Shown here in pieces: positions 2,657-48,129 of a stretch of 64,000 nucleotides of DNA. This stretch comes from Tubiluchus corallicola (lineage: Eukaryota; Animalia; Priapulida), in contig JAQGDQ010000556.1 in the NCBI GenBank assembly GCA_030141605.1, forward strand, positions 62,001 to 126,000. Reading direction: 5' to 3'. Each line of letters begins with the position of its first letter. Within the stretch, counting starts at the first letter, position 1. The notes under the pieces were generated by a model that saw only the letters and a program-made list of their open reading frames with translations, did no database searches and was not told the origin of the DNA. Position numbers and translations under genes: made by a program.

Positions 2657-2854
<198 letters not shown>

Positions 2855-8930: not shown

Positions 8931-9468
8931 CGTCTAATGCCAAATCACGTTGAAAACACCGGTTCTCGCCTGATCGCCGAAGTTAAGCAAAGTAGAATCT
9001 AGTTAGTACTTGGATGGGTGACCGCCTAGGAATACCCGGTGCTGTAGGTTTGCGAGATGTCCACACTGTATCTCGACACTAGGCAGAGGAGCTGTACAAT
9101 GGGTAGAGGGCGGAGGAGGTCAAGTGACTCAACGACAATGTGTAGAGGAGTAAACCTTCCAAATCAGGAGTGGAGCCCCGAAGGCGGACCAGTGCAGCAT
9201 GCTCACTGACTCCGGCAGCTCCTGCAGCCGACCTGGTGCCAAACGTAACGCTCTACTTTCCTTTAGACTACACCAGCGAGGAAGAGAGGGGGTTCCTGTT
9301 GTCTGGGCAACTCAGGATCTCCATACATCTTGCCCAGGCGAGCGCCCTGGAGACGTTCAAGGATCGCACTGTTCAGCCACAGTCGGCGCTGCAGCTCCAT
9401 CAATGTGATCAATAACTGACTCTCTTGGCGCACACTCCATTGTCTTCTCAGACAGGATGCCAACCACA
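8931..9468 (+). mobile_element. 5S rRNA-derived SINE (SINE3-type)
   Basis: A full-length diverged 5S head (~8932-9050) is followed by a ~420-bp GC-richer body. The whole is bounded by an 11-bp TSD atgatgtatgt (8920-8930, 9469-9479). Confidence 0.8.
8932..9050 (+). pseudogene. 5S rRNA-like sequence (SINE head or pseudogene rather than a functional rRNA gene)
   Basis: GTCTA..CACGTTGAAAACACCGGTTCTCG..CGAAGTTAAGCAA..GTTAGTACTTGGATGGGTGACCGCCT.GGAATACC.GGTGCTGTAGG matches metazoan 5S with A and C boxes. It has several stem-breaking substitutions and only TTT after it. Confidence 0.88.
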
Positions 9469-21050: not shown

Positions 21051-21181
21051 GGAGGCGTTGATAATGATGGCAATCGTGGCATTGTCATTTTCATTGATAT
21101 TAGCATTGTCATTGGCATTGATAATGGAGAATTTTTAAATGAAGTTTGTCACCTTTCGTTGTTTGTGTTGACAGGAAAATA

Positions 21182-26877: not shown

Positions 26878-26950
26878 ATGTACGCACAGTGGACCCAGTG
26901 GCCTCTCAGTTTACAAGCTCAAACTTATCAGAATGTGCCGCATGAACAAG
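26878..26950 (+). CDS. PNISR: PNISR coding exon 1
   Basis: MYAQWTQWPLSLQAQTYQNVPHEQ, donor aag|gtaatt, phase 1 into (V)DWAALAQQW. Confidence 0.88.
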
Positions 26951-29900
26951 GTAATTAGGTGAAATTACTTACTTCTGAACTTCTTTCTAATTCACTGAAT
27001 TTCTTTCTAATTCATTTCTTTTCTCTATCTCTGTCTATTATTTTATCCTAACTACTCCCTGTTTTTCTATAATTCTCTCTCTTGTAAATTAAGTCGTTTT
27101 TTTCACTTTTCATGGTGGTCTTACAAGCTTTGCTTCTTGACCACCATGCAGCATCTATTTCTTGTTGACAAACTATTATATGTACTTTAGTAACTATGTT
27201 AGTACACTTCTGTTAAATTTTTGTAATTATATTTGGAATTTTTCCCTAACTATATCATGCTATAGTATACTAATGTAGTTCTGTTACAATTATTGTAACT
27301 ATATTTCATTTTCTAGTTATAAGGTATAATAGTTAAAGATAATAATGCAAATTGTAATGGAAAAATACATGCTGAAGTGATAATTAATTACAAAAATTAC
27401 TTATGGGTAAAAGCATAGTCAACACCCTTTTTGGATTTTTATTGATAGAAATAAATGATGGCAAAACATCTCTTGAGTTATTATTACCAAACATGTTTGA
27501 AATTGTTACTTCACATAAATAACCTTAATTTCCAGGTCACTGAAGCACTGTTGCAGCTAGTAATCTTGTCTGAAAAATAAACTGTGCAAAATTTTGACAA
27601 GAAACTCATTTTAACAGTTTGTAAGATTGGCTGTTTTCCTGATTTGAACAGGACGTGTTAAATTTTGTGATCTGAAGTGGAGAAAAATGTGGTTTGATTA
27701 AAATGGCCATTACTCTGTAATCTTTCATCTAATTTATAAAACAAGTATGATTTTATCATCTATATGAATGGACGTTTCATTTGCTGTATTGCACACACAT
27801 CTATGTGAACATTTTTTCTGCGTCACGGGGGCTACTTCTATACTTCTCGGGGTGTTCATTGCGCTTTTGCTCCTACAATTATCACTAATACGAATGGCGT
27901 TCTGCTGTCATGTTGTGTTATGTTATGTTACCTTTTACTTCAATATGAGATAGCGAAAATTGCGCTCATCTACTTGCCCTGCAATTAATCTATATAATTA
28001 CACATTTATTATAATGTAGGTTTGTATATAAATAATGTTTCTTGTTAATAAATAAATAAATATTGTATATAAATAATCTTTGTATGTCACACGCTCGCAC
28101 ACACACAACAAGTAATTGCATACGGTGCTTCATATATAAATAATCAATACAGCAGTAGATATTAGCAGGACTGAACTGCCAGCCTAGGGCATCGTAACGT
28201 CTTAATACACAACAAGTAATTGCATACGGTGCTTCATATATAAATAATCAATACAGCAGTAGATATTTGCAGGACTGAACTGCCACCCTAAGACTCCGGT
28301 TTAGTGATGTGAAAATCTCGCGAATATCACCATTTTCGAATGCAAATCAGATATCTGGAGCAACAGTAATTGATACTTTTAAGCCTAGTTTCTAAGTGTC
28401 GATATTGGCAAGTTAATTTTCGGTATCGTCCCACAATTCATAATGTTTCCTAACTGATGCCGTTTATGTGTTTTATTATTGTAGTTGATTGGGCGGCACT
28501 TGCACAGCAGTGGATCGCACAGAAAGAAGCCGCAAGTGTCCCAACTGTGCCTATCAACGCGGAACTGCACGAGGAAAATGCGCACGTGGCTCCCCCTCCG
28601 ACAGCAACTTCTGGTATTCAGGGTTTTGTATACAACTACAGTGCAGGTACTGAAAGCCGTTCTTGTCAAAAAGACTTCACTTTGATGTTGGTGGACTGTG
28701 TTGTGGTCTAACTTTGGTTAATATTTGTAGCTTTTCGCTTGAAGATATATTGTGTGAAAGAACTTCTTGTTTTGCTTTGGAAAACTATAGAAGCATTTGC
28801 GAGAAATTTTATACATGCAGCTTATCTATATTGACTGTTGTTGTCTTTCAGATCCGAATTTCATACAACATGGTGCAATGGGTTACGGAGGATGGGCTGG
28901 CGGTAACTGGAGCGGACCCGGTGGGTGGAACGTGCCGCCCAGTGTGGTTCAACCCCCCATGCCTCCCATTGAGAAAGCTGTTATAGATTATGGACACACG
29001 CCGACTCAAACGTTTGAACATGATCACGGCAACCAGTTCAGTCATCCCGCTGAGCCGATTGATTATAACCATGGCAACAGCAGTGATGCATTCCAGTATG
29101 AACACCAGGTAAAAAATTGACTGTCCTGTATTTTGCCTTTCACTAACTGTATATCCCTAGATAGAGTTGATACAGGTAAGATACAGGTAAGATAGAGGTA
29201 AACTACAGGTAAGATACAGGTAAGATACAAGCAAAATACAGGTAAGATACAGGCAAAATACAGGTAAGTTACAATTAAAATACAGGTAAGATAGAGGTAA
29301 AGTACAGGTAAGATACAGGTAGAATACATGTAAAATACAGTCAAAATACAGGTAAGATACAAGCAAAATACAGGCAAAATACAGGTAAAATACAGGTAAG
29401 ATACAAGCAAAATACAGGTAAGAGACAGGTAAAATACGGGTAAGATACAAGCAAAATACAGGTAAGAGACAGGCAAAATACAGGTAAGATACAGGTAAAA
29501 TACAGGTAAGATACAAGCAAAATACAGGTAAGAGACAGGTAAAATACAGGTAAGAGACAAGTAAGATACATTTAAAATACAGGTAAGTTACAGGTAAGAT
29601 ACAAGCAAAATACAGGTAAGTTACAGGTAAAATACAGGTAAGATACAAGCAAAATACAGGTAAGATACAAGCAAAATACAGGTAAGTTACTGGTAAAATA
29701 CAGGTAAGAGACAAGTAAAATACAGGTAAGATACAGGTAAAATACAGGTAAGATACATTTAAAATACAGGTAAGTTACAGGTAAAATACAGGTAAGATAC
29801 AAGCAAAATACAGGTAAGTTACTGGTAAAATATAGATTCATACAGTGAAGGTGCAGAGTTTATACAAATTTTTTGTTAATCATATTCTTTTCGAAAAGCA

Positions 29901-32900
29901 AGCCAAGTGAGTGCTGTCTTTGCTTTTATTGATCCTGTGTGTTGCAATCATAAGTTGCTACCAATGCATCATCATCAGAACTGACGTAAATTTGCCGACA
30001 TCTTTAGCACGGTTTTGCGGATTCTGTGAATTATGCGCCCGATGATTGGGGATCTCAGGACTCGATTCACCAACGAGAGAAGAGCAGGGATAGCAGACAT
30101 TTCCGGCATGGCAGAGGAGACAAGTCACATTTCGCCAATTCTGGTGACTCTCAAGTTCCTGAGTTTCCTGCAGACGTGCCAGTAATCGGTAAGCAACCTA
30201 TTTTGTTAATATTTTGTGGCTTTTACAACCACAATCAGCGATGAGAATTTTCCGCGGATACGCGAAATTCCGAGTTTTTGGAAGACCAGTAGTGCCATTT
30301 TTGTAAATTGCGTAAATTTGTTGAGAAAATTTTTACGGTACATTATTTCGCAAGCTGACTGCTAGGTGGCAGGCCGTCACTTTGTTTACATCACGTACAT
30401 CAGTGTAACCACGTGTATGTCTCTATGTATAAAATTATAGAATCACTTGTGCGGAGTTATTTGAGTCAATTGCAGACAGTTTTTATATACTTTTGCATAG
30501 GAGCGACCAGTACTTAGGCGTTTTTGATACAATTAGGTATCATGTATCCTTGATAGTTGGGTATTTTAAATGATGCATGAAACAAGGTAATTGATATTTT
30601 AAGTCCACTTAGAGGCTCTCTATGGTCACAAAATTCTACATGACATGTAAAACCTATACCAAAGACAAAAAATGGTACCGCTGGTTCTTCGAGGTTTTAT
30701 CGCAGTAATTGGGACCCCCTTGGAAATAAATACTGAGTTACTTGGGTTGTTATGCCAGGACCGCTGCCTAAACGAAATCATTATTATTATAATTTGTATT
30801 TCTGAGTCTCTGTGTTTGCGCCAGATGCTCAAAAGCGGAAACAGCTGCCACTGTGGATCAGGCAAGGTTTGGAAAAGATGGAAGAAGAGAAGAGGAAGAC
30901 CCTAGAAAAAGAAAGAAAGAAACAAGAACTTGAACAGAGGAAGCACCAGGACATGGAAATGTCGGACGACGAAGTCGAACATGATGATGAGAAGACGAAA
31001 AGGAAGAGCAGATTCGTAAGTAATCAGCTAGATGTCGGCACTAAAAGTTTTGTAAACAGATGAGATTTTTTAGGAAAAAGTGGGATTCGAGTTTGATTCG
31101 CTTTCCAAAAATATGTATATTGTGAGATTCGGATTTGCTCCGGATTCGAAAATTATTAGGAAAAACGGGATTCGAACTTGATGCTGCTTCAAAAGACACT
31201 TTATATTGTGAGATTCGGATTCGCTCTGGATTGGAAAATTATTGGGAAAAACGGGATTCAAATTTGATTTTGTTTCAAAATACACTTTATATTGTGAGAT
31301 TCGGATTCGCTCCTAATTGGAAAATTATTGGGAAAAACGGGATTGAAATTTGATTCGCTTTCAAAAGACACAATATATATTGTGAGTTTCGGATTTGCTC
31401 CGGATTGGGAAATTATTGGGAAAAACGGGATTTTGTTTCAAACGACACTTTATATTGTGAGTTTCGGATGTGCTCCAGACTGGAAAATTATTGGGAAAAA
31501 CGGGATTCGAATTTGATTAGGTTTTAAAAGACACTTTATATCAGGGGTGTGTAATTGCAAATCATCTGACCTACCGGACCACATTAAGCTTTCCTGTGGG
31601 CCACATACAAGGAGGCAAGAACAGTAGGACCTAAACAGTAAACACTGCAGAGTCGAAGCCAAGCCCTGGGTGACCTTGGGAATTTTAGCTAGATACTTAG
31701 TTTGGTTGCCGTAGCAACAGTTTACATGTATAAAGTTTGCTGTCATGTCTCACTTGATGTAAAGGCTAGCATTTAGTAATCAGCTAAACAGTGAGTCATT
31801 GAGTGCGGACCTAGCTAAAATATAAATAATAGCTTCATATTTTATTATATGTTTCATTTTCTATATAAAATTCATTACGTTTATTGTCGTTTTGGCAATA
31901 AGTGCATATGTATAGTATTATTTTGAATAGGAAAGTGAGGATGAGGAAAGCAGAAGTAACCATGGCGACAGCGAAGTAGACGAAAGTAAATCTGCGAGGC
32001 CGCGATCTCCGTCTCCCGTAAAAACGGAGGAGGAAAGGCAACAAGAATTGGTTTGTACTTCCACGTAGAACGCATGCAGTACCTGCATTTATTAACCCTT
32101 TCACTACGGAGGGCGGCACAGTGCCACCTATGTTTTTCATGCAAGGGACGAGAGGTGGTAGACTGCCGCCCGAGCTCAACACTAAGCGCAGTCATCCAGG
32201 TCTGTTTATTTTGCTGTTACGTCCATGCAAAAACATTGTAGAAAAGTTTAACAGCCGTGGGATTGGGGTTGGTTTGCAACAAGTAATGCTAACCAGCCAA
32301 TCAGCGTCTGAAGCCAGGTGCATTCCGCAATACTGTACTATATAGTATGTTCTCATGCAAAATTGCTTGTTGAGACTTGGTGAAACGTGTGTTTAGTTGA
32401 TTGTTCTGCATTCTTATAAAATAATTGCATATTGTGGATTAGTATTATGACTTTAGCTACTAATTACAACATTCTGTTTTAGTAACACACCACAAAAAGT
32501 TATTGCCAAATGTGCAAAAACCAAATCGGCATTGGCTAAAAAGCAACTACGTAGTGAAAGGGTTAATCTAGATCGATGCACGCTGAGTTCAGAAAATGTG
32601 TAATATGAAATATATTATTATTATTATGTATTTTATTTGAATCTAAAATGGATACGGCACATGTACAACGATGTTCATACACAACAAGTATATATACACA
32701 AAGATAATAGTTAGGAATATTATGAAATGATTAAAATGCTTCATGTAGTGGTTTCTTACAAGTTCAGGGATGAGAATTTTCCACGTATACGCGGAATTCC
32801 GAGTTTTTGGAAGACCAGTAGTGTCATTTTTGTAAATCGCATAAATTCGTTGAGAAAATTTTTACGGACCCAGTACATTATTTCACAAGCTGACCGCTAG

Positions 32901-35900
32901 TTGGCAGGCCATCACTTTGTTTACATCACGTACATCAGTGTAACCACGTGTATATCTCTATGTATAAAAATATAGAATCAATTGTGCGGAGTTATTTGAG
33001 TCAATTGCAGACAGTTTTTATATACTTTTGCATAGAAGCGGCCAGTACTTAGGCGTTTTTGAGACAATTAGGTATCATGTATCCTTCATAGTTGGGTATT
33101 TGAAATTATGCGTGAAACAAGGTAGTTGATATTTTAAGTCCACTTAGAGGCTCTATGTGGTCATAAAATTGCAATTTGTTGCTGGCTGTGCGGCCCCCAA
33201 ACCGCGGCCTGTTTCAGGGTTTTTTGCAATTTGTCATTCTTATCCCTGCAAGATCATAAAATGATTTCTTGATAGGACGCCTCATGTTGCAATTAAATGT
33301 ACAAAGTGCAACCGTATTTCGATCTTAAGTTAAAATCGCTGTGTTAAATAAATGCAACAATTTTGGTATAAATATCTGACTCGAATTCTGTAGTTTTCTC
33401 GAAAAGTTAAGCCTTCGACTGTAGATTATGAAATTTGACAGCAGAGTCCCACAGTAATATATGAGTAGTTTGATATTTTCACTTTGTCTACACTTAAAGG
33501 AAGACAGGATGATTTTTCTTATACTATCGTATTGTCAAGTCCGATAAAAAGTATGCATTTTAACACGATTAATCCCGCAATAGCGTTTCTGATAATTAAA
33601 TAATTGATTAAAACTTAATTAACGGCTGGCGAGCCTAACTATTGATGATATCACAAACTAACATAATTTTCTACGAGCGTGTTGCACGTGTTTGCGAAAG
33701 CGAAAATTGAAGTACACTGCTACTGTAAGACATTCGGTGTGTTGTACTAAAACTAGGCAAGTTTTAAGATAAAAAATTCAGATTTCAATTTTACTGCTGT
33801 GCTCACTCATGAGCTGTCGAACGTGTGTGGCTCATCACAACTAACACTCCGAACTGAGAGGTACAGCACCTGTTTTTTGTGCAGCGTCATGTCTAACTAA
33901 TGACGAAATGCATGTAACAGCGAAGAACTAGTGGTGCGAATGCGAAATTGTGTTTGTGTGGTAACAATTCTTTCACAAAAGTCATTTCACAAATTTTCAT
34001 TAAGAAAATAGTATATTTTCTTTCAATATTTTAAACAGTAGATTGATTTGACCTATATTTTAAGATTGAGTCCGGTTTTGCTTTAAAATTTTTTCTAAAA
34101 ACAGTGTTCCGCGATATGTAAGTCTGACCTGCTAATAGCACCAATTTCACAAGCATATAACAAGATAGGTAAACTATAGAGGTGGTTTGAAATTTAGTTT
34201 CAAGATTTTATTCTGAAATGTGTACATAAACTGTGAAGTAGTGTCATGCTGAAAAGCAGAAAACCAAGTGACCAGAACTACAGGTGAAATCATTTAGGTG
34301 TGAAAACAGGTTTAGAGATTATGCATTCATAAAGACTGTAGAAGCCAATGAAAATTTAAACCGTAAAGAGAAAGATTTAGCAATTTTAACAAGAACGCCT
34401 GAAGGTGGCAGCACTATGCAAAACTCAAAAAAGTATGATGACAATGCAACATAAATTCAAATTTAGAGTAATTAAAATGATTTTCTTCTGTCCAAGAGGC
34501 ACATTAATTTTTTTGCCACTGTTTCAGTACGGTTCATTAAAAAAGAAACTCGTTATGTGAAATGCGTCATAAAGAAGCGAAATTTGAAGAGTTTTTCTTT
34601 GTCAGATAATGAAGACGCGTCGAATGATGACCGAAGTATTATTGACTGTAACAGAAGAATTAATTCATGATATCTCTAGGGAAGTATATAAGCGAGCGCT
34701 GACGAAAGGTAAGCGTTCGTCTATTCCCTATGTGTTTTGTTATAATGATCTATTTGACCGCCAGCTAAATTATGCCTCTCAGAACCATTGTTTCCAAATA
34801 TTAGATCTACACATACTAATATGTACTTGTATAATGATAGGGATAACAGTCAGGGGCGTATTAACCTATAGACTGACTAGGCTGTAGCCTAGGGCGCGAA
34901 TTTTTAGGGGGACATATTTTAGAAAAAAATCTTATTCTCCTCATAAAATTTGTACAATTCCATATTCTTGTGAAGGGTGCATTTTATAACACACCACAGG
35001 CAGTTAATGAGAGCAGGTTGTATGGAAGTGCCACATAACGAACAGGTGCAAGGTATTACACAACCAGCAGTTGTATAGCTTTATTTGAATATAAACGAAT
35101 ACTATGCAAATACATGTAATTAATAATGACCACGTAGGAACTAGGTTAATACTGTTTCTAATACACCACAAATAATTGTTTAAAATCTGCTCATTACATA
35201 AATAACGATGAATTCACAATAGAGTTGGGCGGGACAAAACAATCAGCCTAGGGTAGCGTAAAATCTTGATCCACCTCTGATAACAATACCTGTATGATGA
35301 TAATGATATGCCTGGATCCTTGATCCACCTCTGATAACAATACCTGTATGATGATAATGATATGCCTGGATCCTTGATCCACCTCTGATAACAATACCTG
35401 TATGATGATAATGATACACCTGGATCCTTGATCCACCTCTGATAACAATACCTGTATGATGATAATGATACACCTGGATCCTTGATCCACCTGTGATAAC
35501 AATACCTGTATGATGATAATGATACACCTGGATCCTTGATCCACCTCTGATAACAATACCTGTATGATGATAATGATACACCTGGATCCTTGATCCACCT
35601 GTGATAACAATACCTGTATGATGATAATGATACACCTGGATCCTTGATCCACCTCTGATAACAATACCTGTATGATGATAATGATACACCTGGATCCTTG
35701 ATCCACCTGTGATAACAATACCTGTATGATGATAATGAACGCCTGGATACTTGATACACCTCTGATACCAATACCTGTATGATGATAATGATACGCCTGG
35801 ATCCTTGATCCACCTCCGATAACAATACCTGTATGATGATAATTATATGCCTGGATCGTTGATCCACTTTTCAATCAAAGAATGTTTGAGTCAGCTTATT

Positions 35901-38900
35901 GATTAAACTCTTGGGTAGGTATTAAAATCATTACGTGAATTTTAACTTTTACGTACAATAAAGGATGTGCTAAAAATTGTGATATCAGATGTAATATTTG
36001 CCTTTGTTTTGGTTTGTATCATTATTTTTCACTTCGACGCCATTTTGCATGTTCACGTCTTTAAGTTATTTATAAATCTTGTAGCTGTTTCTGCTTTGTA
36101 CAAAGTTGTTGACATGTTCACTGTTATTCTGTCCAATATATGGTTTGCGTTCTTTATCTAATACGTTATGTAGAAAAGTGGTGATCACTTAAGAGATTTT
36201 AAGTGGTCACAGAAGAGATTTTAAGTGATCACAGAAGAGATCACATATGTGGTTAGCCGCTCGTTATCATCCACGATGAAGATTTTAGGCAGGTTTAGAG
36301 ATGTGTTTCCATTTCTATGAGGAAGTAGTCCATAATGCCGGGCCAAACTTTTGTTACATTTCACCAGGATCTAGACAGATTCTCGTTGCGACATTTTCAG
36401 AATTCACTGTCTAGTTCAAGAACAGTGAATTATAGTTATTGAAACAGTGAAGATTATGAGAATTAATCACTATCAGTACTAATGTCATTTTTGAGAGCGA
36501 GGCGTAACATTTCCCGATTCGGTTTCTGAGCCATTTAGAATTTTGTTGATTCTTATTTTTGCCAGTGAACTAGAATCATCATTTCCGTCATCAAGAAGTC
36601 TTTGAGGCAAGAATTGCTCTAAATTTACATGAAACGGGGAAAATTTTACTGATAACTTGACAAATCGGTCCGTCAAGAGGTGCATCACAAGAATTGCTCT
36701 AAATTTATTTGAAACAGGAAAAATTTTACTGATAACTTGACAAATTGGTTCGTCAAGCAGTGTATCACATGCATTTGACACTGTTCGTCAAGAAGTGTGT
36801 CGCATGCATTTGACACTGTTCGTCAAGAAGTGTATCACATGCATTTGACACTGTTTGTCAAGCAGTGTATCACATGCATTTGACACTGTTTATCAGGAGG
36901 TGTATCACATGCATCACAAGAATTGCTCTAAATTTACGTGAAACAGGAAAAATTTTACTGATAACTTGACAAATTGGTTCGTCAAGCAGTGTATCACATG
37001 CATTTGACACTGTTCGTCAAGAAGTGTATCACATGCATTTGACACTGTTTGTCAAGAAGTGTATCACATGCATTTGACACTGTTCGTCAAGAAGTGTATC
37101 ACATGCATTTGACACTGTTTGTCAAGAAGTGTATCACATGCATTTGACACTGTTCGTCAAGAAGTGCATCACATGCATTTGACACTGTTCGTCAAGAAGT
37201 GCATCTCATGCATTTGACACTGTTCGTCAAGAAGTGTATCACATGCATTTGACACTGTTCGTCAAGAAGTGTATCACATGCATTTGACACTGTTCGTCAA
37301 GAAGTGTATCACATGCATTTGACACTGTTCGTCAAGAAGTGTATCTCATGCATTTGACACTGTTGTCAAGAAGTGTATCACATGCATTTGACACTGTTCG
37401 TCAAGAAGTGATCACATGCATTTGACACTGTTCGTCAAGAAGTGCGTCAAGAAGTGTATCCATGCATTTGACACTGTTCGTCAAGAAGTGTATCACATGC
37501 ATTTGACACTGTTCGTCAAGAAGTGTATCACATGCATTTGACACTGTTCGTCAAGAAGTGTATCACATGCATTTGACACTGTTCGTCAAGAAGTGTATCT
37601 CATGCATTTGACACTGTTCGTCAAGAAGTGTATCACATGCATTTGACACTGTTCGTCAAGAAGTGTATCACATGCATTTGACACTGTTCGTCAAGAAGTG
37701 TATCACATGCATTTGAGACAAGATTTGCTCTAAATTTATGCGAAACAGTCGTTTCCAAACTTTACGCCGTCTGCCTGGGAGTTTGCATTCTCGTTGGCTT
37801 GGCAACGAGGGTAGATCCCTACATTTTTATGTGCAACTCTGAATGGAAAGCGCAGTGTCAAACAACGCTTGGGAAGTAACTAAGTAAACTGGCAAATGCA
37901 AAATGGCCGCATACATGCTTGCACACGCCAGAGAGAGAAAATGTCATATTAGTGCTAGCATTTCTGTATTTTTTCAGCATTCAAGTAAAACCTGCTCTAA
38001 TCTAATTAGAATATAATTATCTAATTAGATTTGCGGTAACGGGCATTGTGCAAATGTTTAGGCAAATAGGTTCCGGGACTCGAGTCGAAATTTTGGCCCC
38101 GAGTGGGCCCCAAAATATCTGTTTCAGTGAATTTTTTGGAATAACGTTTGCAAACACATTCGAGAATCTGCCTACAATCTTTATCTTGCAAAACAGTTTA
38201 ACGTTCTGGTGATTTTCTTGTGTATTTTTGGATATTTTCTTATCCCCGGTAGTATGGTAAGAAGTTTTTCCGAGAGTTGTTGACAGTTGCCACCAGCTGT
38301 CAGCACTTTGGTTAAAGGAAAAGCACATTGATAAGTATGCTGTACATGTTCTCTTGCAGTACGTCTGTGCCGTTACAGCTCTTTTTTAGATTTTGCAAGT
38401 TTTTCAGCCGAAGGATTGTTTAGAAACCCTTTGCTCTGGAAATTAATAAAGTTTGTTGTTGTTGTATATAAAGTTCCGGCAAAGCAGCTCGCTCACACCT
38501 CTGCTTTGACGTCGATCACTGGCGCCATAGGTGAGTGTTTCTCGCGGCGCGTGAGTTGAAAACTGGTAGCAATAATCGCAATCGCATCACATTGCCGGCT
38601 CGGAAATTTATTTAAAGCAAAAGCCAAGTCTCTCGGGAAGCGGAACTCGATTTAATATTTGGGAAAAATGTGTTAGACAGTTTCAGCAATGAAATTGTGA
38701 TAGCATCTCGTGTAATTAGTAAAATTAATTTAAAGTCGCCGTCACTTCACGCTAGGGCGCGCTCATTTTAGACGAAAAATGGCGTCGTCCGGTTGCCGTG
38801 CAATATGAACACTTATCCCACCAGGTACTTCAGAATCTTCTTTTTAACTTATAGAGCGAACTCTCTAAACTAAGTAACCAGCCCGGCATCTACTGCGTGC

Positions 38901-41900
38901 TGGCAAGTTTACATGTGTATCTAAAAGTCAACAAACATCTATAAATTACTTATTTACACAATTAATGTTAATTACTTACACATTTTAAGGTGTAATCTTG
39001 TATATTAAAGTAATGTAACCACTTTAAATTTGATCTAATTGATGACTAATTTCTAGATAACGACAGTTAAGAAACATAACATTAGAATAACTGAACTTCT
39101 AAGCAAACTGTAGAAACTTCTCAACGCGTACCTTCATCACAGCTTGCCTTCACGGCATTCACGCTGCCCAGCAGACACCAGTTTACGTCATTTTTTTTAA
39201 ATATGCCGGCAGCGACGTTCGTTTGGTGGGAGATTAAAAATATTTAAATTTCTTTTACATTTGTAAGCAGAGCATTTTACTCACATATTTGGTGTGGTGA
39301 TTTCAATATTTTTAATTGTACATTAAAATGCAATAAATGTTGTTCGAGGGTTGGTTCTTCCTTTAAATAAGCAGATGTGTATACTTTGCATGTGAGTGCC
39401 TATCTTTTGATAAATATATTTTTTTGCTTAACTTGGCTTATTGGCTTGTGTATTCCGTCAAAAGCACAAAAGGAATTCTAAATTAAAAACGCCGAAAAAT
39501 TTTGCAACTTTGTTGGGACTTGAACTCAAGACTTTCTGCTTCCCGAACACGTTTGCTAATCATCACGCTACGGAGATACCTGACTTTTCAGACTCAGAAA
39601 TGCCAATAGACATCTGTCGGATCATTGCTGATAGTAGACAGTAATGTCTTAATTTGCAATGCGAACGTAATTGCTATCAGTATTCAACTTCGTCGTTTTT
39701 GCTTTTATTTTGGTTAGTTTGTGGTGTCAGGCACTTGCGTTTAGCGAGCACACATTGAAATGATAAATGTGCTCAATGTTCTACTAAAAAGTTTTGAATT
39801 TGAAAAAGTGCTCAGGTCATTGGATAATGAACTGTTCGCAAATTGAATTATGTTGTTACTGGCAAATTAGATTGCTTTTAAGCCATTGTGAGATATTTTT
39901 TGCTTTGATTAAAATGTCTTGTGCTACAAATCTGTTATTGCATACTAAACAAAACATGTCATTTCAACTTACCTTTATTTAGATGGCAAATAATATTTTA
40001 AGAATTATATAGTAGTTTTTAATATTGTAAGTAAACGGTGCTAGCTTGTATGGTGTATGAAATGTTCGTACTAACAACCAAAGTTTAGATAGAACTGTAC
40101 TGCTGTTATTCTAGTTTCTTCACTCTTTGTACAATAAACTCCGCTTAACTGAAATCCAACTGGACCGAAAAAAGAACTTTCAGTGGGCGATGTTTTAAGT
40201 TGGACGATGTTGAGCAATTTCCAGCTTAGAGACTCTAAACCCCTCCTCCAGATGGCGAGCTAAATAGATGGCAGAAAGTCAACCCTTCTGTACATAAACG
40301 ATGAGATTTGATGACATTTACATAAGAAATAACAGAATAACAGACTGCATAAGAAATAACTTACATTAACTTCTCACGAACACAACTACGCTTAACTTAC
40401 ATTAACTTCACACGAGCACAATTACTCTTAACTTACATTAACTTCTCACGGACATAACTACTCTTAACTTACATTAACTTCTCACGGACACAATTACTCT
40501 TAACTTACATTAACTTCTCACGGACATAACTACTCTTAACTTACATTAACCTCTCACGGACACGACTACTGTTAACTTACATTAACCTCTCACGGACACC
40601 ACTACTCTTAACTTACATTAACTTCACATGGGCACAACTACTCTTAACTTACATTAACTTCTCACGGACACGACTACTGTTAACTTACATTAACTTCTCA
40701 CGGACGCAATTACTCTTAACTTACATTAACTTCTCATGGACACAACTACTCTTAACTTACATTAACTTCTCATGGACACGACAACTGTTAACTTACATTA
40801 ACTTCTCACGGACGCAATTACTCTTAACTTACATTAACTTGTCATAGACACAATTACTCTTAACTTACATTAACTTCTCACGGACACAATTACTCTTAAC
40901 TTACATTAACTTCTCACGGACACGACTACTCTTAACTTACATTAACTTCTCACGTACGTAATTACTCTTAACTTACATTAACTTCTCACGGACGCAATTA
41001 CTCTTAACTTACATTAACTTCTCACGGACACAACTACTCTTAACTTACATTAACTTCTCATGGACACAATTACTCTTAACTTACATTAACTTGTCACGGA
41101 CGCAACTATCCTTAACTTACATTAACTTCTCACGGACGCAATTACTCTTAACTTACATTAACTTGTCACGGACGCAACTATCCTTAACTTACATTAACTT
41201 CTCACTGACACAACTACTCTTAACTTACATTAACTTCTCACTGACACAACTACTCTTAACTTACATTAACTTCTCACGGTCGCAATTACTCTTAACTTAC
41301 ATTAACTTGTCACTGACGCAATTATCCTTAACTTACATTAACTTGTCACGGACACGACTACTCATAACTTACATTAACTTCTCACGGATACAATTACTCT
41401 TAACTTACATTAACTTCTCACGGATACATTTACTCTTAACTTACATTAACTTCTCACGGATACATTTACTCTTAACTTACATTAACTTCTCACGGACGCA
41501 ATTACTCTTAACTTACATTAACTTGTCACTGACACAACTACTCTTAACTTACATTAACTTCTCATAGACACAATTACTCTTAACTTACATTAACTTGTCA
41601 CGGACGCAACTATCCTTAACTTACATTAACTTCTCACGGACGCAATTACTCTTAACTTACATTAACTTGTCACGGACGCAACTATCCTTAACTTACATTA
41701 ACTTCTCACTGACACAACTACTCTTAACTTACATTAACTTCTCACTGACACAACTACTCTTAACTTACATTAACTTCTCACGGTCGCAATTACTCTTAAC
41801 TTACATTAACTTGTCACTGACGCAATTATCCTTAACTTACATTAACTTGTCACGGACACGACTACTCATAACTTACATTAACTTCTCACGGATACATTTA

Positions 41901-44900
41901 CTCTTAACTTACATTAACTTCTCACGGATACATTTACTCTTAACTTACATTAACTTCTCACGGATACATTTACTCTTAACTTGCATTAACCTCTCACGGA
42001 CGCAACTACTCTTAACTTGCATTAACTTGTCACGGACACAACTACTCTTAACTTACATTAACTTCTCACTGACACAACTATTCTTAACTTACATTAACTT
42101 CTCACGGTCGCAATTACTCTTAACTTACATTAACTTGTCACTGACGCAATTATCCTTAACTTACATTAACTTGTCACGGACACGACTACTCTTAACTTAC
42201 ATTAACTTCTCACGGATACAATTACTCTTAACTTACATTAACTTCTCACGGATACAATTACTCTTAACTTACATTAACTTCTCATGGATACAATTACTTA
42301 TCCTCTATCCAGCAGGTCACTATATAATAGGTTTAGAGACAGGCAATTTCTTCATATTAGTTCGTCACGTGCATTCGATATTTTGTTATATGTTAGACGT
42401 CATCCGGAACGGTTGAACGGTGAACCGATCGCAATTAATAACGTTTAAACGATTAGCTAAAAAACCTAACTGTCTCATGTCTCAGCCGTAGTAATGATTA
42501 AGTTATCTTTGAAATCACGGCACGGTTTAACCAGTTTGTGTGTATTTGCAGGTCTCGGCGGTTACGGCTCCGAGTCGGACGAAGAAGCGAGCCGGCAGGG
42601 ATCAGTGAGTGCGGCGGAGGATCGCGTCGGCGACGACGGAGACAGCGACAGCGACGCCGAGCTAGAGGCGCAGATTAGGAGGCGCAGGCTAGCATTCGAA
42701 AAGAAAATGGCTGCGCGCAGAGAGGAAGAAGAAAGAGTAAACAGTGGCGATTCGGAGAAAGAAAAAGCTTCTGAAACACAAGAAAATGATGAGGATGGTA
42801 ATTAGATACGTTAATTAAATAAATAAATAAATTATAAATAAATACTGAAAGGGGAAGAAAAGGGGTACAGTGTTCCCTCGCTACTTTGTGTATTGCGGAC
42901 TCGCTGGTTCGAGGGTTTTCAAAAATATTAATGTAAAATATTTATCGTGGTATTTTCGCTGTAGTCCGTCTAAAGTATTTTGCACATGCGTAGTACGTAT
43001 TCTACAGTAATGTATAGATTTGATGAATTTTGCATAAAAAAAATCGCAAAATGTATAAAAATATATTAAAAATAATAATTCTAACATTAAAAGATTATTA
43101 TAAATCATAAAAAATTACCATTTGCAGTAAATAGTGTATTTATTCGGCGGAACCTAGTCACTGGGGGGGGGGGCAAGCCAGCCCAACTCAGTGCCGGTCC
43201 CAAGCCCGGATAAATAGGGAGGGTTAGGGTCAGGAAGGGCATCCGCCTGTAAAAACTGCGCCAAAACCTTCTATGAATGAGTCGGTGAGACTTGAAGGTA
43301 AAGTCCACAAAGAAGTGGTCAGACCCGCTCTAATCTATGGGCTGGAAGCAGCTTCTCTAAAGAAGACCGAAGAGAAGAAAATGGGTGTGGTGGAGATGAG
43401 GATGTTGAGATGGATGGTGGAAATAACAAGAAGAGATAAAATTAGAAATAATAATATCAGAGGAACAGTAAAAGTAGTGGAAGCATCGAAAGATTGCGAT
43501 GGTATGAACACCTGAAAAGAAGTCGGTGAAGATCATGTGGAAAGGGAAGACATAAATGAATAGATGGTCAACAACAGGAATGCATGGAGAAGACTCATTC
43601 ACAACGGCGACCCCGCATAGGGAAAAGCTGGGAAGAAGAAGAAGAAGAAGTGTATTTATTCGGCGGATGAATACACACCAAAAACGAAATGTAGTACTTG
43701 CGCCCGCTTGAGATGCTACTTGCAGACGTGAGATTGTACGCAACACACGATTGGTTGATTGATGGAATGTAAAATAATGTATAAGTACTAAAATAAGTAT
43801 AGCTTCGCAGAATTTCGCTTATCGTGGGTGGGCCTGGAACGGAACAACCGCGATAAGTGAGGGAACACTGTATTCTAAGGTGTACTGCATAAAACCTTTC
43901 ATATTAAGTTATATTGCTTAGAATTATGGTTACCTGTTTGAAAAATTTACATAATTGGCAGAGAATTTTTTTTAGTAATTTAAAACACTTGCACCACCTG
44001 GTAAAGTGGCTTTGCATCGCCATCCAGTTGTACTACTGATTCACCATAAAGTACATGCAGTCATACCTCCGTTGTCGAACGTCTCCGTATTCGTAGAAAT
44101 CGGTTTTCGACCAGAAAATTCGAGTTGAAATTCTCTCCGCTCTCGACCAGAATTTCGGTACTCGACCAACCGCCAAACACGTGATGAATGCATGCGCGGC
44201 GAGCCGAGTAGAGCCGAGCGTAACCGACCGCGCCCGAGAGTAGTCACGCACAAGATTTGAATTGCCTAACATCGCTAAGTGCTTTCTACGCTTATTTTTC
44301 TCCGCTTTTCATGCAGGAACAATTATGTTTTTCTTTCAAAGTAATTCTATTATGATTTTCTTATCAATTATATCATAGCTACTGTTTGAAAAAACATTTT
44401 TGCATTATTATATTTCGTTTTAGTAATACTTTACTGTTCATTTGGTGCTTGAGAACGGATTATTTGCTATTAAATTATTTCTTATGGGAATAAATGATTT
44501 GGTACTCAACCAAATGGGTTTACAAACACTTTTTAGGAACGAATTATGGTCAAAAACAGAGGTACTACTGTAGTTAATCTTTTTGACCATATAATGTCAT
44601 TTAAACTTTTCCTTAGTTAACAAAGCTATGCTATGCAACGAACGCTCTGATCATTTTTTCAAACTATGCACAATGTTGCCTAAACTTGTTTCAAATGACT
44701 TGAAATGTCAAAATGGCTGCGCCTAACAGTCGTCGCTGGAGTTCAGGTTTACTGACAGCATGAAGTAATTCATACTTTAGCTTACTTTGTAGCAAAAAGT
44801 GTATGTTTAGCAAAAAATACACGTGCTCTGATTATTTTAGGCAAAGTTAGCTAAACTTGTTTCAAACGACTTACCATTAAAATGGCTACATGTAATTGCC

Positions 44901-47900
44901 ATCGCAGGAGTTTATATCTACAAGTTTTATATTGTGTTACTGCTAATGCAAGCGCTTTATGCAATAAGACAGTGTGTAAGTGATACAAAGTTTGAAAACA
45001 GATGTTTTAAGCTTCGCTTATGTGTTACTGCTAATGCAAACCCTTTATGCAATAAGACAGTGTGTAAGTGGTACAAAGTTTGAAAACAGATGTTTTAAGC
45101 TTTGCTTATGTGTTACTGCTAATGCAAGCCCATTATGCAATAAGACAGTGTGTAAGTGGTACAAAGTTTGAAAACAGATGTTTTAAGCTTCGCTTATGTG
45201 TTACTGCTAATGCAAGCCCTTTATGCAATAAGACAGTGTGTAAGCGGTACGAAGTTTGAAAATGAATGTTTTAAGCTTTGCTTATGTGTTACTGCTAATG
45301 CAAGCCCATTATGCAATAAGACAGTGTGTAAGCGGTAAGAAGTTTGAAAATGGATGTTTTAAGCTTTGCTTATGTGTTACTGCTAATGCAAGCCCATTAT
45401 GCAATAAGACAGTGTGTAAGTGGTAAGAAGTTTGAAAATGGATGTTTTAAGCTTTGCTTATGTGTTACTGCTAATGCAAGCCCTTTATGCAATAAGACAG
45501 TGTGTAAGCGGTACAAAGTTTGAAAACGGATGTTTTAAGCTTTGCTTATGTAGGCTATTTTCTGTGCTTCAAATACTTCAAGATAAATACCATTATTGTT
45601 TTATTAAAAAGGAACCATGACATACGGAGATTCTGATTAAATTTTTTTTGTGCGTCTCTTAGTTGCAAGACGACCCCAGCAAGATGAATCCGGAGTTGAT
45701 TCGGAGAACGTGGATTCAAATCCAGTGTTTAAGGAGAGCAGGCGACACAAGGGCATTCCTGGACTGGACGCTAAGAAGGAGAGCGACAGCGACGATTCCA
45801 GTTCCGATTCGGACAGCGATAGTGACGCCAGCGTGAAGCGAAAAGCTGGCAGTCTATTGCACGGCCAGAAGAGCAGCAAACATAGTGAACATCGTGAATC
45901 GCAGAGCAAAACACACGGCCGGCATTTGTCAAGCGGTGATCGTGGTAGAAAGCGAAGCGAGGAGAAGACAAGGAGAAGAGAATCTGATAGGCACAAGCAT
46001 AGAGACAGCGAAGACCGGTACCCTAAGCAGTATAGACAAGTAGAAAGGAGTAGAAGTAGGAGTAGAGAAAGAAGAAGACGTAGCCATAAGTCAGACGAGA
46101 GGCGAAAAGAGCGTAGGAGTAGGTCGTACAGTAAGGAACGAGAGAAGGATAGGGAGAGGCGTAGGAGGAAAGAGAGCACTTCTGAGAGGCGTAAAAGTCG
46201 AGACGACGATTCACGACACCGTAAAACTAGAGAGGAGGAATACGTGAGGCATAAAAGTAGAGAGGACAACAGGCGTTATAGAAGTAGAGATAAGGACAAA
46301 TACTCAAGGTCGCATAGGGATAGGGATGATGACAGTGAAAAAAGTCGACACCGGTCGCATCGGACGCTTAGCTCTAGCGCAAGTAAAAATCGTGGCTCTA
46401 AGAAGAAGCGAGAGAGAGAGCCGAGTTCCGAGAGCCAGACGAGTAATTCGAAAGAACGCTCGGCGAAGAAGAAGATGAAGAGAAAGAGCTCAAGCGTAGA
46501 AAAACGCTCGAAGCGCTCGAAGAGGAAATCTTCTAGCAGCTCCAGCAGCTCTTCGACTTCGGAAAAGTCGCCTAATAGGTCTGTATCCGATGATGATGAC
46601 GACGATGACGACGACGACAGCAGCAGCGTGCAGTCGGGTAAGCGGTCGAGTCGAAAACACAAGTCAAAATCCTCGCGTAAGTATCCAGTCTTTGTCGTAT
46701 GCGACATGCGAAATGTAGAAGCTTTGTGTTCATATTGTGTTGGTGGCATAGTTAGATTAGAGAAGTCCAGGGGGCAGCACTTGTTGTTTAATGCTCGGTT
46801 AAAAAGTTATCATTTTGTCAGCGTGGTAAGAAATCGAAAACGTGTGACGGATTGACTTTTCACGAAAACGTGAACTGCATTTCAGAAAATTTCGACAATG
46901 GACAACGGTACTGTAATGTTTACTTCGTTTTTTGTTCTCCTGCGTCAGACATTTTTTCCAAAAGTGCAGCGTATGTTTTACGTGATACGTATTGATATCT
47001 TCGCCTTCTTCTTCGTTAAAATTCAAAGCTAGTCTATAAGTATCGTAGTTTTTTGAAGCGCAGCGGTATGTGCGTTTCTTCACAGATCAGCGTTTTTTGC
47101 ATTTCTCCGCAAATTTGTCTCGCAATTTGCTAAGAGTGATAAAAATTTTTGTTGGCTTCTATAGAAACTTCAGTGGAAAGAAAAAATAACAGAATTCAGT
47201 TTTCCGTCAGTTATTTTTTGTCCTTTTTTTCTTCAATTAAGTTAATTTAAAGCAAAAATTGAAAAAAAACAAATTACCGTGTCCAGTACGGTAGTATTGC
47301 AGTTAATTTTTTTTTACTTTGGCCATAAACACAATGTCAACGTTTGGTTTATTGGCGTAAGTGTATGATGTATTTTTCGTTGGTGGGAGAATGGGTTAGG
47401 TGACATGCCAAGGTACCTCGGCGAGCGGGGAATGCTCTAACCAACGCCGTTGTATATTGCTTATTTTCCTGATCGCCTGTCAGTCGTTTTGTGTCCGTTA
47501 GGGGTGAGCGTTCGAGTTCGGGTTCGAACCAGTTTTTTAGTTCGAATTCGATTCAAACCTAAAATTTAGCTCTTCAACCGCATATGTTCTTCATCATTAA
47601 AATGCTCGAAACGTCGTTCAATTAGCACAATTTAGCTGCGATTTTTAAATAAATTATCAGCGGTTCATCGTCATCATCATCATCATCATCATCATCATAT
47701 GCCCGTCACGTCTATTGTAGACGTTGGACAGGCGGAATTCTAAAATAAAAGAAATCTGCCTTCAGACAGGTAAACGCAGCAGTAATCCAGCAAAAAAAAA
47801 CTAGACACTGCTACGCCAGTGGCTTGTCAGCACCACTTCCGAGTGTCAGCGGTTATACTGCAGAGCAAAATCGAGCAATATGCATGATCTTTGTAAGATC

Positions 47901-48129
47901 ACTTTTTACTGGTGGTTCGAAAGCTTATCCGAAAAAAATCTTTCAAACTCGATTCGAATTCGATTCGAAATACTAAAGCTTGTTTCGATTCTCATACCAA
48001 AATTCACAAATTCAATTCGATTCAAATTTCTTTTTGGGTGGAGAATGCTCACCTCTTGTGTCCGTTCGGAAGTGACGAGTTTCATCCTGTTTACTTGTAA
48101 ATCCTGATTTTTCTTTTGCAGGATCGTGA
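26878..48129 (+). CDS. PNISR: PNN-interacting serine/arginine-rich protein (PNISR/SFRS18), whole coding span, 11 exons, ~803 aa
   Basis: Exons 26878-26950, 28485-28646, 28852-29108, 30008-30188, 30825-31015, 31931-32050, 34606-34708, 38474-38530, 42552-42797, 45663-46676 and 48122-48129 are all GT-AG and phase-compatible (2412 nt). Motifs: DWAALAQQW, KRKQLPLWIRQGLEKME, TEVLLTVT, PAKQLA..SAL.SITG..GLGGYGS and an RS domain. Confidence 0.93.
28103..28285. repeat. ~78-bp direct duplication (period ~104 bp)
   Basis: acacaacaagtaattgcatacggtgc...gcaggactgaactgcca occurs twice. Confidence 0.88.
28485..28646 (+). CDS. PNISR: PNISR coding exon 2
   Basis: Acceptor ttgtag, peptide DWAALAQQWIAQKE, donor cag|gtactg in phase with the next exon. 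Confidence 0.88.
28852..29108 (+). CDS. PNISR: PNISR coding exon 3
   Basis: Acceptor tttcag, Pro/Gly-rich with IDYGH/IDYNHG repeats, donor cag|gtaaaa. Confidence 0.85.
29170..29830 (+). repeat. 11-bp minisatellite (tacaggtaaga) made of 5' splice-site consensus motifs
   Basis: About 60 units. A hand count gives ~35 CAGGTAA, of which 6 are CAGGTAAGT. Confidence 0.96.
30008..30188 (+). CDS. PNISR: PNISR coding exon 4
   Basis: Acceptor ctttag (phase 0), HGFADSVNY..DVPVI, donor cg|gtaagc (phase 1). Confidence 0.8.
30236..30637 (+). mobile_element. Truncated copy of the DNA element at 32765-33248
   Basis: About 400 bp closely matching 32765-33170. Confidence 0.85.
30825..31015 (+). CDS. PNISR: PNISR coding exon 5
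   Basis: DAQKRKQLPLWIRQGLEKME..KSRF, with ccag acceptor and gtaagt donor. Confidence 0.93.
31070..31541. repeat. ~87-bp diverged tandem repeat, ~5.5 copies
   Basis: Unit gggaaaaacgggattcgaatttgatt..tttcaaaagacactttatattgtgagattcggatt.gctccggattggaaaattatt. Confidence 0.88.
31931..32050 (+). CDS. PNISR: PNISR coding exon 6
   Basis: Acceptor gaatag, ESEDEES..RSPSPVKTEEERQQEL (120 nt, phase 0-0), donor gtttgt. Confidence 0.85.
32096..32562. mobile_element. piggyBac-type MITE
   Basis: TTAA|CCCTTTCACTACG ... CGTAGTGAAAGGG|TTAA. Confidence 0.88.
32765..33248 (+). mobile_element. Non-autonomous DNA transposon (CAGGG termini)
   Basis: TIRs are CAGGGATGAGAAT / ATTCTTATCCCTG. A second copy starts at 30236. 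The TSD is unclear. Confidence 0.8.
33498..34082 (+). mobile_element. Kolobok-like MITE
   Basis: Imperfect TIRs TTAA|AGGAAGACAGGA ... TCCGGTTTTGCT|TTAA. A related inverted copy lies at ~22027-22643. Confidence 0.55.
34606..34708 (+). CDS. PNISR: PNISR coding exon 7
   Basis: IMKTRRMMTEVLLTVTEELIHDISREVYKRALTK, the conserved PNISR helix, with gtcag acceptor and gtaagc donor. Confidence 0.92.
35265..35868. repeat. 54-bp minisatellite, ~11 copies
   Basis: Unit tgatccacctctgataacaatacctgtatgatgataatgatacacctggatcct. Confidence 0.96.
36608..37740. repeat. 35-bp minisatellite nested in a larger ~80-bp duplicated unit
   Basis: Unit cgtcaagaagtgtatcacatgcatttgacactgtt. The block caagaattgctctaaattta..tgaaac recurs at ~36608, 36688, 36917 and 37719. 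Confidence 0.94.
38474..38530 (+). CDS. PNISR: PNISR coding exon 8 (57 nt)
   Basis: VPAKQLAHTSALTSITGAI matches the conserved PAKQLA..SAL.S.TG motif. The acceptor is AAG and the donor ag|gtgagt. Confidence 0.9.
40357..42300 (+). repeat. 36-bp minisatellite, ~53 copies
   Basis: Unit cttaacttacattaacttctcacggacacaattact. It explains the LTYINFSRTQLL ORFs. Confidence 0.97.
42552..42797 (+). CDS. PNISR: PNISR coding exon 9
   Basis: GLGGYGSESDEE..DSDAELEAQIRRRRLAFEKK, with ttgcag acceptor and gtaatt donor. Confidence 0.92.
42868..43870. mobile_element. Tc1/mariner (Tigger-like) MITE interrupted by the RTE-derived element
   Basis: TA|CAGTGTTCCCTC ... GAGGGAACACTG|TA. Confidence 0.85.
43151..43650 (+). 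mobile_element. Bipartite non-autonomous RTE-derived retroelement (copy 2)
   Basis: The TSD is tgtatttattcggcgg (43135-43150, 43651-43666). It has the same 5' end, internal junction and (GAA)n tail as the copy at 5549-6044. Confidence 0.9.
44058..44570. mobile_element. Degenerate Tc1/mariner-type MITE
   Basis: Left end CAGTCATACCTCCGTTGTCGAAC versus right-end reverse complement CAGTAGTACCTCTGTTTTTGACC. TA is present on the right only. Confidence 0.5.
44930..45552. repeat. 88-bp tandem repeat, ~7 copies
   Basis: Unit tatgtgttactgctaatgcaagccc(a/t)ttatgcaataagacagtgtgtaag(t/c)ggtacaaagtttgaaaacagatgttttaagctttgct. Confidence 0.95.
45663..46676 (+). CDS. PNISR: PNISR coding exon 10 (RS/charged domain)
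   Basis: Acceptor ctcttag (phase 1), a long R/S/K/E-rich ORF, donor c|gtaagt. Confidence 0.9.
47499..48057. mobile_element. Degenerate MITE rich in TTCGAA motifs in the last PNISR intron
   Basis: Imperfect TIRs TAGGGGTGAGCGTTC / GAATGCTCACCTCTT, with clustered ttcga(a/t) subterminal repeats. Confidence 0.45.
48122..48129 (+). CDS. PNISR: PNISR terminal coding micro-segment (..R S stop)
   Basis: Strong acceptor tttttcttttgcag. C+GA TCG TGA completes KHKSKSSRS*. Confidence 0.75.

What the first reader, a model, noticed from the sequence alone, without database searches (positions are those of the whole stretch)
29106..29830. Array of ~35 consensus 5' splice sites right behind a weak donor in the splicing-factor gene PNISR
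Seen: the real exon-3 donor is CAG|GTAAAA. An in-frame TGA follows at 29118-29120. About 60 nt later an 11-bp sense-strand repeat gives ~35 CAG|GTAA motifs, mostly CAG|GTAAG and six perfect CAG|GTAAGT, i.e. better U1 matches than the real site. Established: SR-family splicing factors often self-regulate through unproductive splicing and NMD, decoy donors can promote intron retention, and U1 binding suppresses premature polyadenylation. Inference: use of any array donor would include the stop, so the array may be a copy-number-tunable poison switch or U1 sponge. Each TACAG|GTAAG is also an AG|GT recursive-splice-like junction.
Basis: partly seen in the sequence, partly recalled or inferred. Interest (0 to 1): 0.8.

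Follow-up and report, generated by a model that had tools for sequence, protein, structure and literature searches.

The report
Splice-donor minisatellite inside a PNISR intron
An 11-base repeat copied 60 times in one intron of an invertebrate's splicing-factor gene PNISR carries 35 look-alike splice donors, most predicted stronger than the gene's own; they are likely ignored drifting repeat DNA of a kind known from human and lancelet genes, though a hidden tiny exon in front of the repeat is possible and untested.

Summary
Sixty 11-bp units at 29170-29829 give 35 CAG|GTAA, 28 CAG|GTAAG and 6 CAG|GTAAGT, all sense, in intron 3 of a Pfam-confirmed PNISR gene.

The exon-3 donor ranks second of nine in this gene. 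A stop so close to a donor is ordinary (74%). The units lack pyrimidine tracts, intron 3 has no AATAAA, and minisatellites fill 28% of this gene's introns, one with 52 antisense GTAAGT.

Best reading (0.58): a drifting minisatellite of latent donors, mostly silent, working like the human F7 VNTR and amphioxus 'mirages'. The scan found 8 similar arrays in other genomes.

Two differences remain. The array starts 61 nt behind the donor, and 28 copies pair with U1 better than all nine real donors, which mammalian rules say should compete. The spacer also holds a CACTAAC branch-point match and TAG acceptors, so unit 1 may be the donor of a hidden 11-15-nt microexon (0.2). Splicing itself was not observed. 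New variant of a known kind; interest 0.33.

The parts
26878..48129 (+). PNISR gene, my 10-exon model (784 aa, RS-rich C-terminus); no RNA support
   Evidence: N-terminal and PF15996 motifs align with arthropod and fish PNISR
28852..29108 (+). modelled exon 3 (257 nt, phase 1 to 0)
29106..29114 (+). exon-3 donor CAG|GTAAAA; U1 duplex -8.3 kcal/mol, second of 9 modelled donors
29118..29120 (+). in-frame TGA, 10 nt into intron 3; ordinary for this intron DNA
29141..29147 (+). branch-point-like CACTAAC (6 of 7 to the U2-pairing consensus, recalled); the putative branch A is intron nt 38
29158..29164 (+). two candidate TAG acceptors (after 29160 and 29164), pyrimidine fraction 0.70 and 0.55; use not shown
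29161..29175 (+). candidate hidden microexon (15 nt, or 11 nt from 29165) ending at the first array donor; hypothetical
29170..29829 (+). minisatellite of 60 x 11 bp, mostly alternating as a 22-bp dimer; 35 CAG|GTAA, 28 CAG|GTAAG; strong donors 22 nt apart in 20 of 27 gaps
   Evidence: a piece of it also lies in run X1
29261..29819 (+). six CAG|GTAAGT sites (GT at 29264, 29583, 29616, 29682, 29770, 29814)
30006..30188 (+). intron-3 acceptor AG (30006-30007) and modelled exon 4 (30008-30188)

Best explanation
This is an 11/22-bp intronic minisatellite whose unit matches the 5' splice-site consensus; it likely grew by slippage and unequal exchange without selection, and its donors are likely mostly silent, with exon 3's own donor predicted to do most of the splicing. 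Shown: the array, its strand, its donor matches and the upstream stop. Inferred: the upstream donor commits first, as for the F7 VNTR. Donors 11-22 nt apart may also crowd each other for U1, and the upstream stop makes them 'latent' sites. Any leak would give a 167-aa truncated message, probably removed by NMD as a by-product and not as a switch.
For: Minisatellites are everywhere here: 6 long arrays make up 5,265 of 18,897 intron bases of this gene, 28%. Donor-like motifs turn up in other arrays: 52 GTAAGT on the antisense strand of the intron-7 36-mer, 4 sense GTAAGT in the intron-8 88-mer, and 19 sites at -8.5 kcal/mol in the 17485-19872 array. The array looks like ordinary turnover: no indels, shared variant units, decayed edges, and 23 of 30 A-ending units have lost CAGGTAA. 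The same 11-mer forms short tandem arrays in 4 of 4 metagenome loci that share nothing else with the window in the top BLAST rows. The stop is ordinary. Precedent: F7 pseudo-sites stay silent up to a consensus value of 91 (PMC1557585), and mirages do not disturb splicing (PMC3087553). Run X1 holds a 96-nt contig of array units in the window's variant order, so the array is not an assembly artefact.
Against: None of the other 10 long arrays, on either strand, has a site at -11 kcal/mol or better; this one has 28. Mammalian data predict competition: perfect F7 pseudo-sites took about 70-90% of splicing, and of two strong donors 45 nt or more apart the intron-proximal one is used about 100% (PMC3413131). 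The first array donor here is 67 nt downstream and stronger. The spacer's acceptor-like signal is uncommon. 28 of 30 G-ending units keep the donor against 7 of 30 A-ending ones, although distinct substitutions (6 vs 9) do not differ, p=0.61. The host is a splicing factor.
Confidence: 0.58

Rival explanations
1. Hidden microexon ('true mirage'). A branch point at 29146 and a TAG at 29160 or 29164 define an 11-15-nt exon whose real donor is array unit 1, and the array arose by copying that exon-intron boundary. With the branch A only 38 nt from exon 3's donor, the microexon would probably be mutually exclusive with exon 3. Exon 2 to 29164 gives a 702-aa in-frame form lacking exon 3; exon 2 to 29160 gives a 95-aa NMD target. 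If the 52-nt intron can be spliced, exon 3 plus 15 nt gives 789 aa.
For: CACTAAC (6 of 7) plus a YAG with pyrimidine fraction 0.70 occurs at only 2 of 368 other intronic YAGs in this gene, and at 7 of 2,774 YAGs outside arrays on both strands of the window; none of the other 8 introns has it in its first 70 nt. It would explain why the array begins 61 nt behind exon 3, since known donor arrays start at a real boundary. A steric limit of about 50 nt between donor and branch point enforces mutually exclusive exons in vertebrates (PMC7969005).
Against: The thresholds were set after seeing the site. At looser ones (pyrimidine fraction 0.6, branch match 5 of 7), 25 of 368 pass. None of the 9 modelled acceptors meets the strict criteria, so they are not calibrated for this species. 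With three AGs available, an in-frame option is likely by chance. The first 9 nt of the microexon resemble a decayed repeat unit. The shortest modelled intron here is 205 nt. No close homologue was found to test for the insert.
Confidence: 0.2
2. Unselected but substantial mis-splicing. The stronger, intron-proximal array donors take a large share of splicing to 30008, lowering PNISR output through NMD, and the allele persists because the loss is tolerated or compensated.
For: 28 array donors out-pair all 9 modelled donors. The proximal-site rule and the F7 perfect-site result point this way. The last strong donor would leave a 194-nt intron, close to the 205-nt intron 2.
Against: In the known human and amphioxus arrays only the first one to three sites are used. 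Those competition rules come from mammalian minigenes and extracts. Heavy loss of a conserved splicing factor should be selected against (inference).
Confidence: 0.1
3. One reading: a selected, copy-number-tunable poison switch, decoy exon or U1 sponge that regulates PNISR.
For: The host is a splicing factor with an RS-rich tail. Decoy exons need both 3' and 5' sites (PMC6097662), and this locus has a candidate acceptor plus many donors. The 22-nt alternation of intact donors might suit U1 packing (inference).
Against: Described decoys and poison exons are highly conserved and enriched in introns over 1 kb (listing), whereas this is a fast-turnover repeat in an 899-nt intron. The stop is ordinary, intron 3 has no AATAAA, and the monomer asymmetry is not significant. 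The listings showed no paper on PNISR autoregulation.
Confidence: 0.08
4. Recursive or dual-specific splicing: AG|GT junctions in the array act as ratchet points, most plausibly unit 1 (a 67-nt first step).
For: Every intact unit has CAG|GT. Unit 1 has the CACTAAC 30 nt upstream. A tandem array of dual-specific AGGT sites is used in human UBC (PMC10809524, abstract).
Against: The array is 29% pyrimidine. Three AGs lie between the branch point and unit 1, whose pyrimidine fraction is 0.45. The intron is only 899 nt.
Confidence: 0.04

Closest known systems
Human minisatellites that reiterate a 5' splice site: F7 IVS7 37-bp VNTR; also 6-16/IFI6, CBS, LMNB2, PDGF (PMC1557585; abstract, section 9 and passages seen; the others only as summarised in its introduction)
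   Same: An intronic tandem array of sense-strand donor motifs behind an exon; tens of copies (25 pseudo-sites in 6-16); short unit.
   Different: There the first unit spans the authentic boundary and the pseudo-sites equal the real site. Here the array starts 61 nt downstream, shares only CAG|GTAA(AA) with the exon-3 donor, and 28 copies are stronger than it.
Amphioxus 'mirage' minisatellites (Adh3, globins; PMC3087553, passages seen)
   Same: Invertebrate, repeat-rich introns; units of 10-160 bp with AG/GT signals; ordinary repeat turnover; reported not to disturb splicing.
   Different: Mirages span an exon-intron boundary by definition. Here that holds only if the hypothetical microexon is real.
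Latent 5' splice sites / suppression of splicing (PMC3510495, passages seen)
   Same: Intronic donor consensus within 1 kb of the authentic donor, with an in-frame stop between.
   Different: 35 copies in one repeat; described in mammals; silence or stress activation not tested here.
Decoy exons promoting intron retention (SF3B1, OGT; PMC6097662, abstract and section 10 seen)
   Same: Splicing-factor host; a candidate acceptor followed by several donors.
   Different: Decoys are highly conserved and typical of introns over 1 kb; this is a minisatellite 52 nt from the upstream donor in an 899-nt intron.

Membership tests
Boundary-reiterating minisatellite (F7-type / mirage) | Head-to-tail minisatellite in an intron | tested here: met
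   60 x 11 bp in intron 3 of the PNISR model
Boundary-reiterating minisatellite (F7-type / mirage) | Units carry a sense-strand splice signal | tested here: met
   35 CAG|GTAA sense, 0 antisense
Boundary-reiterating minisatellite (F7-type / mirage) | First unit spans the authentic boundary of the preceding exon (exon 3) | tested here: not met
   Array starts at 29170, exon 3 ends at 29108; 12 of 17 bases match in register, 9 contiguous
Boundary-reiterating minisatellite (F7-type / mirage) | First unit spans the boundary of some other real exon (candidate microexon 29161/29165-29175) | tested here: inconclusive
   Acceptor-like signal present, post hoc rate about 0.5-11%; use not observed
Boundary-reiterating minisatellite (F7-type / mirage) | Only the most upstream site(s) are used; length polymorphism | not testable with these tools
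   No spliced reads across intron 3 and no array-spanning sequence from another individual
Latent 5' splice sites (SOS) | Donor consensus within 1 kb downstream of the authentic donor with an in-frame stop between | tested here: met
   definition
Latent 5' splice sites (SOS) | Unused normally, activated by stress or by removing the stop | not testable with these tools
   needs RNA or a minigene
Decoy exon / poison exon | Cryptic exon with 3' and 5' splice sites | tested here: inconclusive
   candidate acceptor at 29160/29164 plus array donors
Decoy exon / poison exon | Typically in a large (>1 kb) retained intron | tested here: not met
   intron 3 is 899 nt; retention not measurable
Decoy exon / poison exon | High conservation across species; NMD-sensitive junctions | not testable with these tools
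   no related animal genome held; nearest exon-5 homologue 62% identical
Recursive splice site | AG|GT preceded by a polypyrimidine tract and branch point | tested here: not met
   array 29% pyrimidine; unit 1 has a branch-point match but pyrimidine fraction 0.45 and three AGs in between

The most novel reading that the evidence does not exclude
PNISR intron 3 hides a microexon that is sterically exclusive with exon 3 (branch point 38 nt from exon 3's donor) and whose donor has been amplified into a 60-unit array. Exon 2 to 29160 gives an NMD target and exon 2 to 29164 gives an in-frame isoform lacking 85 N-terminal residues, so array length tunes the level or isoform of a splicing factor: a VNTR-built poison or decoy switch.
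Probability: 0.08. Interest if true: 0.72.

Novelty: new variant of a known kind. Interest (0 to 1): 0.33.

Why it matters
As a silent array it is a natural test of donor choice. Here 28 stronger, intron-proximal donors sit 67-705 nt behind a moderate one, the setting in which mammalian minigene and extract rules predict that the real site loses. Showing silence would constrain scanning, U1-crowding and stop-dependent suppression models in an invertebrate. If the microexon or a length-dependent effect is real, it would show a minisatellite building a splicing-factor control element, where such elements are usually ultraconserved.

Tried and rejected
RNA test: no RNA holder was listed. This says nothing about expression or splicing. 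Run X1 (kind not on record) runs through exon 4 and both flanking introns without a joint and differs from the window at 11 of 423 bases; it behaves as genomic DNA and may or may not be independent of the window's source. It has no cover over 28630-29169, which includes exon 3 and the spacer, so the spacer could not be compared. X1's array contig has depth 13 against 12.3 for the exon-4 contig, but the tool says depth is no copy number, so I draw nothing firm from it. X2 laid 3 short pieces of a dispersed repeat and nothing.

Genomes and homologues: no whole genome is held, so the genome-wide strand-bias test could not be run. Homologue searches found no close relative to test the exon 3/4 junction or the microexon: 0 of 49 candidates, best 62%, and 16 hits led by spider, tick and other arthropod proteins (a profile led by a spider sequence). 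The two-unit pattern gave 0 hits in genome contigs and 0 in viral contigs. No look-alike stretch exists among the scan's windows. Rfam found nothing at the array.

Other checks: MaxEntScan was not available; U1 duplex energy is a cruder substitute. One MFE fold of 29061-29850 (-0.16 kcal/mol per nt, no shuffle control) was uninformative. Selection on the G-ending monomer was considered and not supported (6 vs 9 distinct substitutions, p=0.61). Origin by copying exon 3's own donor could not be separated from plain donor-likeness (9 shared bases). Assembly artefact was rejected. Turri 1995 on 6-16 is not held. No supplementary files were read.

Full report
OBSERVATION. The array is as described. 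Positions 29170-29829 divide into 60 ungapped 11-bp units with 35 CAGGTAA, 28 CAGGTAAG (22 +A, 6 +T) and 7 CAGGTAAAA, none antisense. All 28 plus-strand CAGGTAAG of the window lie in it. TRF reports period 22, 30.1 copies, 84% matches and no indels: G-ending and A-ending monomers mostly alternate. The donor at 29108|29109, the TGA at 29118-29120 and the acceptor before 30008 are correct. Pfam PF15996 matches 2 of 8 exons scanned. My 10-exon model has one open frame of 784 aa with an RS-rich tail, after boundary corrections; it has no RNA support. The organism is an invertebrate animal; other scan notes suggest a priapulid, which I did not test.

IS IT REAL? Unnamed run X1 has a contig over 29840-30262 with 11 differences and a 96-nt contig of array units whose visible letters follow the window's variant order from 29448. 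The array is therefore not an assembly artefact. X1's independence and array length are unknown.

IS IT MORE THAN CHANCE? The copy number is one amplification, so the question concerns the unit. A random stretch of the window's non-repeat DNA made into an 11-mer tandem carries AG|GTRAG in 0.075% of 20,000 draws. Over the window's 11 long arrays the chance of at least one on a given strand is about 5% (three rates borrowed or interpolated). Six arrays occupy 28% of this gene's intron bases. Weaker donor-like motifs occur in other arrays in either orientation: 52 antisense GTAAGT in intron 7, 4 sense GTAAGT in intron 8, and 19 sites at -8.5 kcal/mol at 17485-19872. Against chance, this is the only one of 11 arrays with sites at -11 or better, and it starts 62 nt from a donor; another array starts 58 nt from one. 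The two-unit pattern also occurs in 4 metagenome loci. TRF gave 3.9, 6.5 and 9.4 copies in L001-L003; L004 has about 3 by eye, just past the stop of an ORF in a gene-dense contig. No splice context was established for them. There were 0 hits in prokaryote genomes and viral contigs. So the unit is uncommon, but within reach of a scan over many windows.

U1 duplex energies (ViennaRNA, recalled U1 5' end) are -5.1 to -9.5 kcal/mol for the nine modelled donors. Exon 3's is -8.3, second best; array donors give -11.0 (22 sites), -12.1 (6) and -8.3 (7). The real donor is thus out-paired but not weak for this gene. A stop within 66 nt occurs in 74% of 19,422 random intron stretches and within 63 nt behind 7 of 9 donors; >98% of human latent donors are preceded by one (PMC3510495, passages). 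Direct use of any of 36 array CAG|GT sites gives 167 aa. The array is 29% pyrimidine against 45-75% at real acceptors, and intron 3 has no AATAAA, which weakens the recursive and polyadenylation ideas. 28 of 30 G-ending units keep the donor and 7 of 30 A-ending ones do, but distinct substitutions are 6 vs 9 (p=0.61), so selection is not shown.

The 61-nt spacer contains CACTAAC (29141-29147; branch A at intron nt 38) and TAGs ending at 29160 and 29164. With the first array donor (GT at 29176) these define a 15- or 11-nt microexon. Exon 3 plus 15 nt gives 789 aa, exon 2 plus 11 nt gives 702 aa, and exon 2 plus 15 nt gives 95 aa. A branch match of 6/7 with pyrimidine fraction 0.70 or more occurs at 2 of 368 other intronic YAGs and 7 of 2,774 window-wide; looser thresholds give 25 of 368; none of the 9 modelled acceptors meets the strict pair. 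The signal is suggestive, post hoc and uncalibrated. A donor-to-branch distance under about 50 nt enforces mutually exclusive splicing in vertebrates (PMC7969005, passages). If real, the array would be a classic boundary copy of a hidden exon.

MECHANISM. Most likely (0.58), slippage amplified a donor-like seed, the copies are latent donors, and exon 3's donor commits first. In F7, pseudo-sites up to consensus value 91 do not compete (PMC1557585: abstract, section 9, passages). Amphioxus mirages do not disturb splicing (PMC3087553, passages). Crowding of U1 at 11-22-nt spacing is my inference; proximal-site use rises only beyond about 30 nt separation (PMC3413131, passages). The same papers give the counter-evidence: perfect pseudo-sites took 70-90% in F7, and the proximal of two strong sites 45 nt or more apart is used about 100%. 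Rivals are the hidden microexon (0.2), heavy unselected mis-splicing (0.1), a selected switch, decoy or sponge (0.08) and recursive splicing (0.04). Decoy exons need both splice sites but are conserved and typical of introns over 1 kb (PMC6097662: abstract, section 10). UBC's dual-specific array is a used example (PMC10809524, abstract only). Splicing of this intron was not observed.

COMPARISON AND NOVELTY. It works like F7-type or mirage donor arrays and like latent 5' splice sites. It fails the membership feature 'first unit spans the exon's boundary' for exon 3 and is inconclusive for the microexon, so I file it as a variant. The scan has noted 8 similar donor or acceptor arrays in other genomes (unchecked notes), and none resembles this sequence. 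Listings from searches (titles and abstract starts only, top rows of up to 717 hits) showed no paper on such an array in PNISR or on PNISR autoregulation; that is limited evidence of absence. Interest 0.33: a real, clean example with one testable oddity (stronger downstream donors, possible microexon), in a class already described.

Noticed in passing
window 40357-42298: 36-bp minisatellite (54 copies) in PNISR intron 7 with 52 GTAAGT on the antisense strand; by eye the sense strand carries repeated branch-point-like TTAAC, ending 254 nt before the exon-8 acceptor.
   Followed up: partly
window 44933-45551: 88-bp repeat (7 copies) in intron 8 with 9 sense GTAAG, 4 of them GTAAGT, ending 112 nt before exon 9.
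   Followed up: partly
window 30227-30635: High-copy dispersed element in intron 4: 879 X1 records were laid on the stretch, with summed depth up to about 39,500 against 12 on exon 4. By eye a second copy lies near 32770-33200 in intron 6.
   Followed up: no
window 8932-9050: Lone full-length 5S rRNA match (Rfam 77.5 bits) outside any tandem cluster; could be a pseudogene or the head of a 5S-derived SINE.
   Followed up: no
window 51385-55263 (-): 1,292-aa open frame with a C-terminal glycosyltransferase family 11 domain (E=3.6e-43) and about 1,000 residues with no Pfam match in front of it.
   Followed up: partly
window 2657-3967 (+): Last exons of a 2-hydroxyacid dehydrogenase-family gene (PF02826); resembles CtBP (name recalled, not tested).
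   Followed up: partly
window 21143-21973 (+): 276-aa acidic open frame with no Pfam match, ending in a CC-containing motif.
   Followed up: no
window about 5520-6040 (-) and 43150-43650 (+): By eye, two copies of one dispersed element that look like the 3' remnant of a LINE.
   Followed up: no
P0056, P0087: Catfish PNISR isoforms of about 390 aa; the one aligned (P0056) ends soon after the part matching exon 7 and lacks the RS tail, so a truncated isoform may be a PNISR control point unrelated to this array.
   Followed up: no
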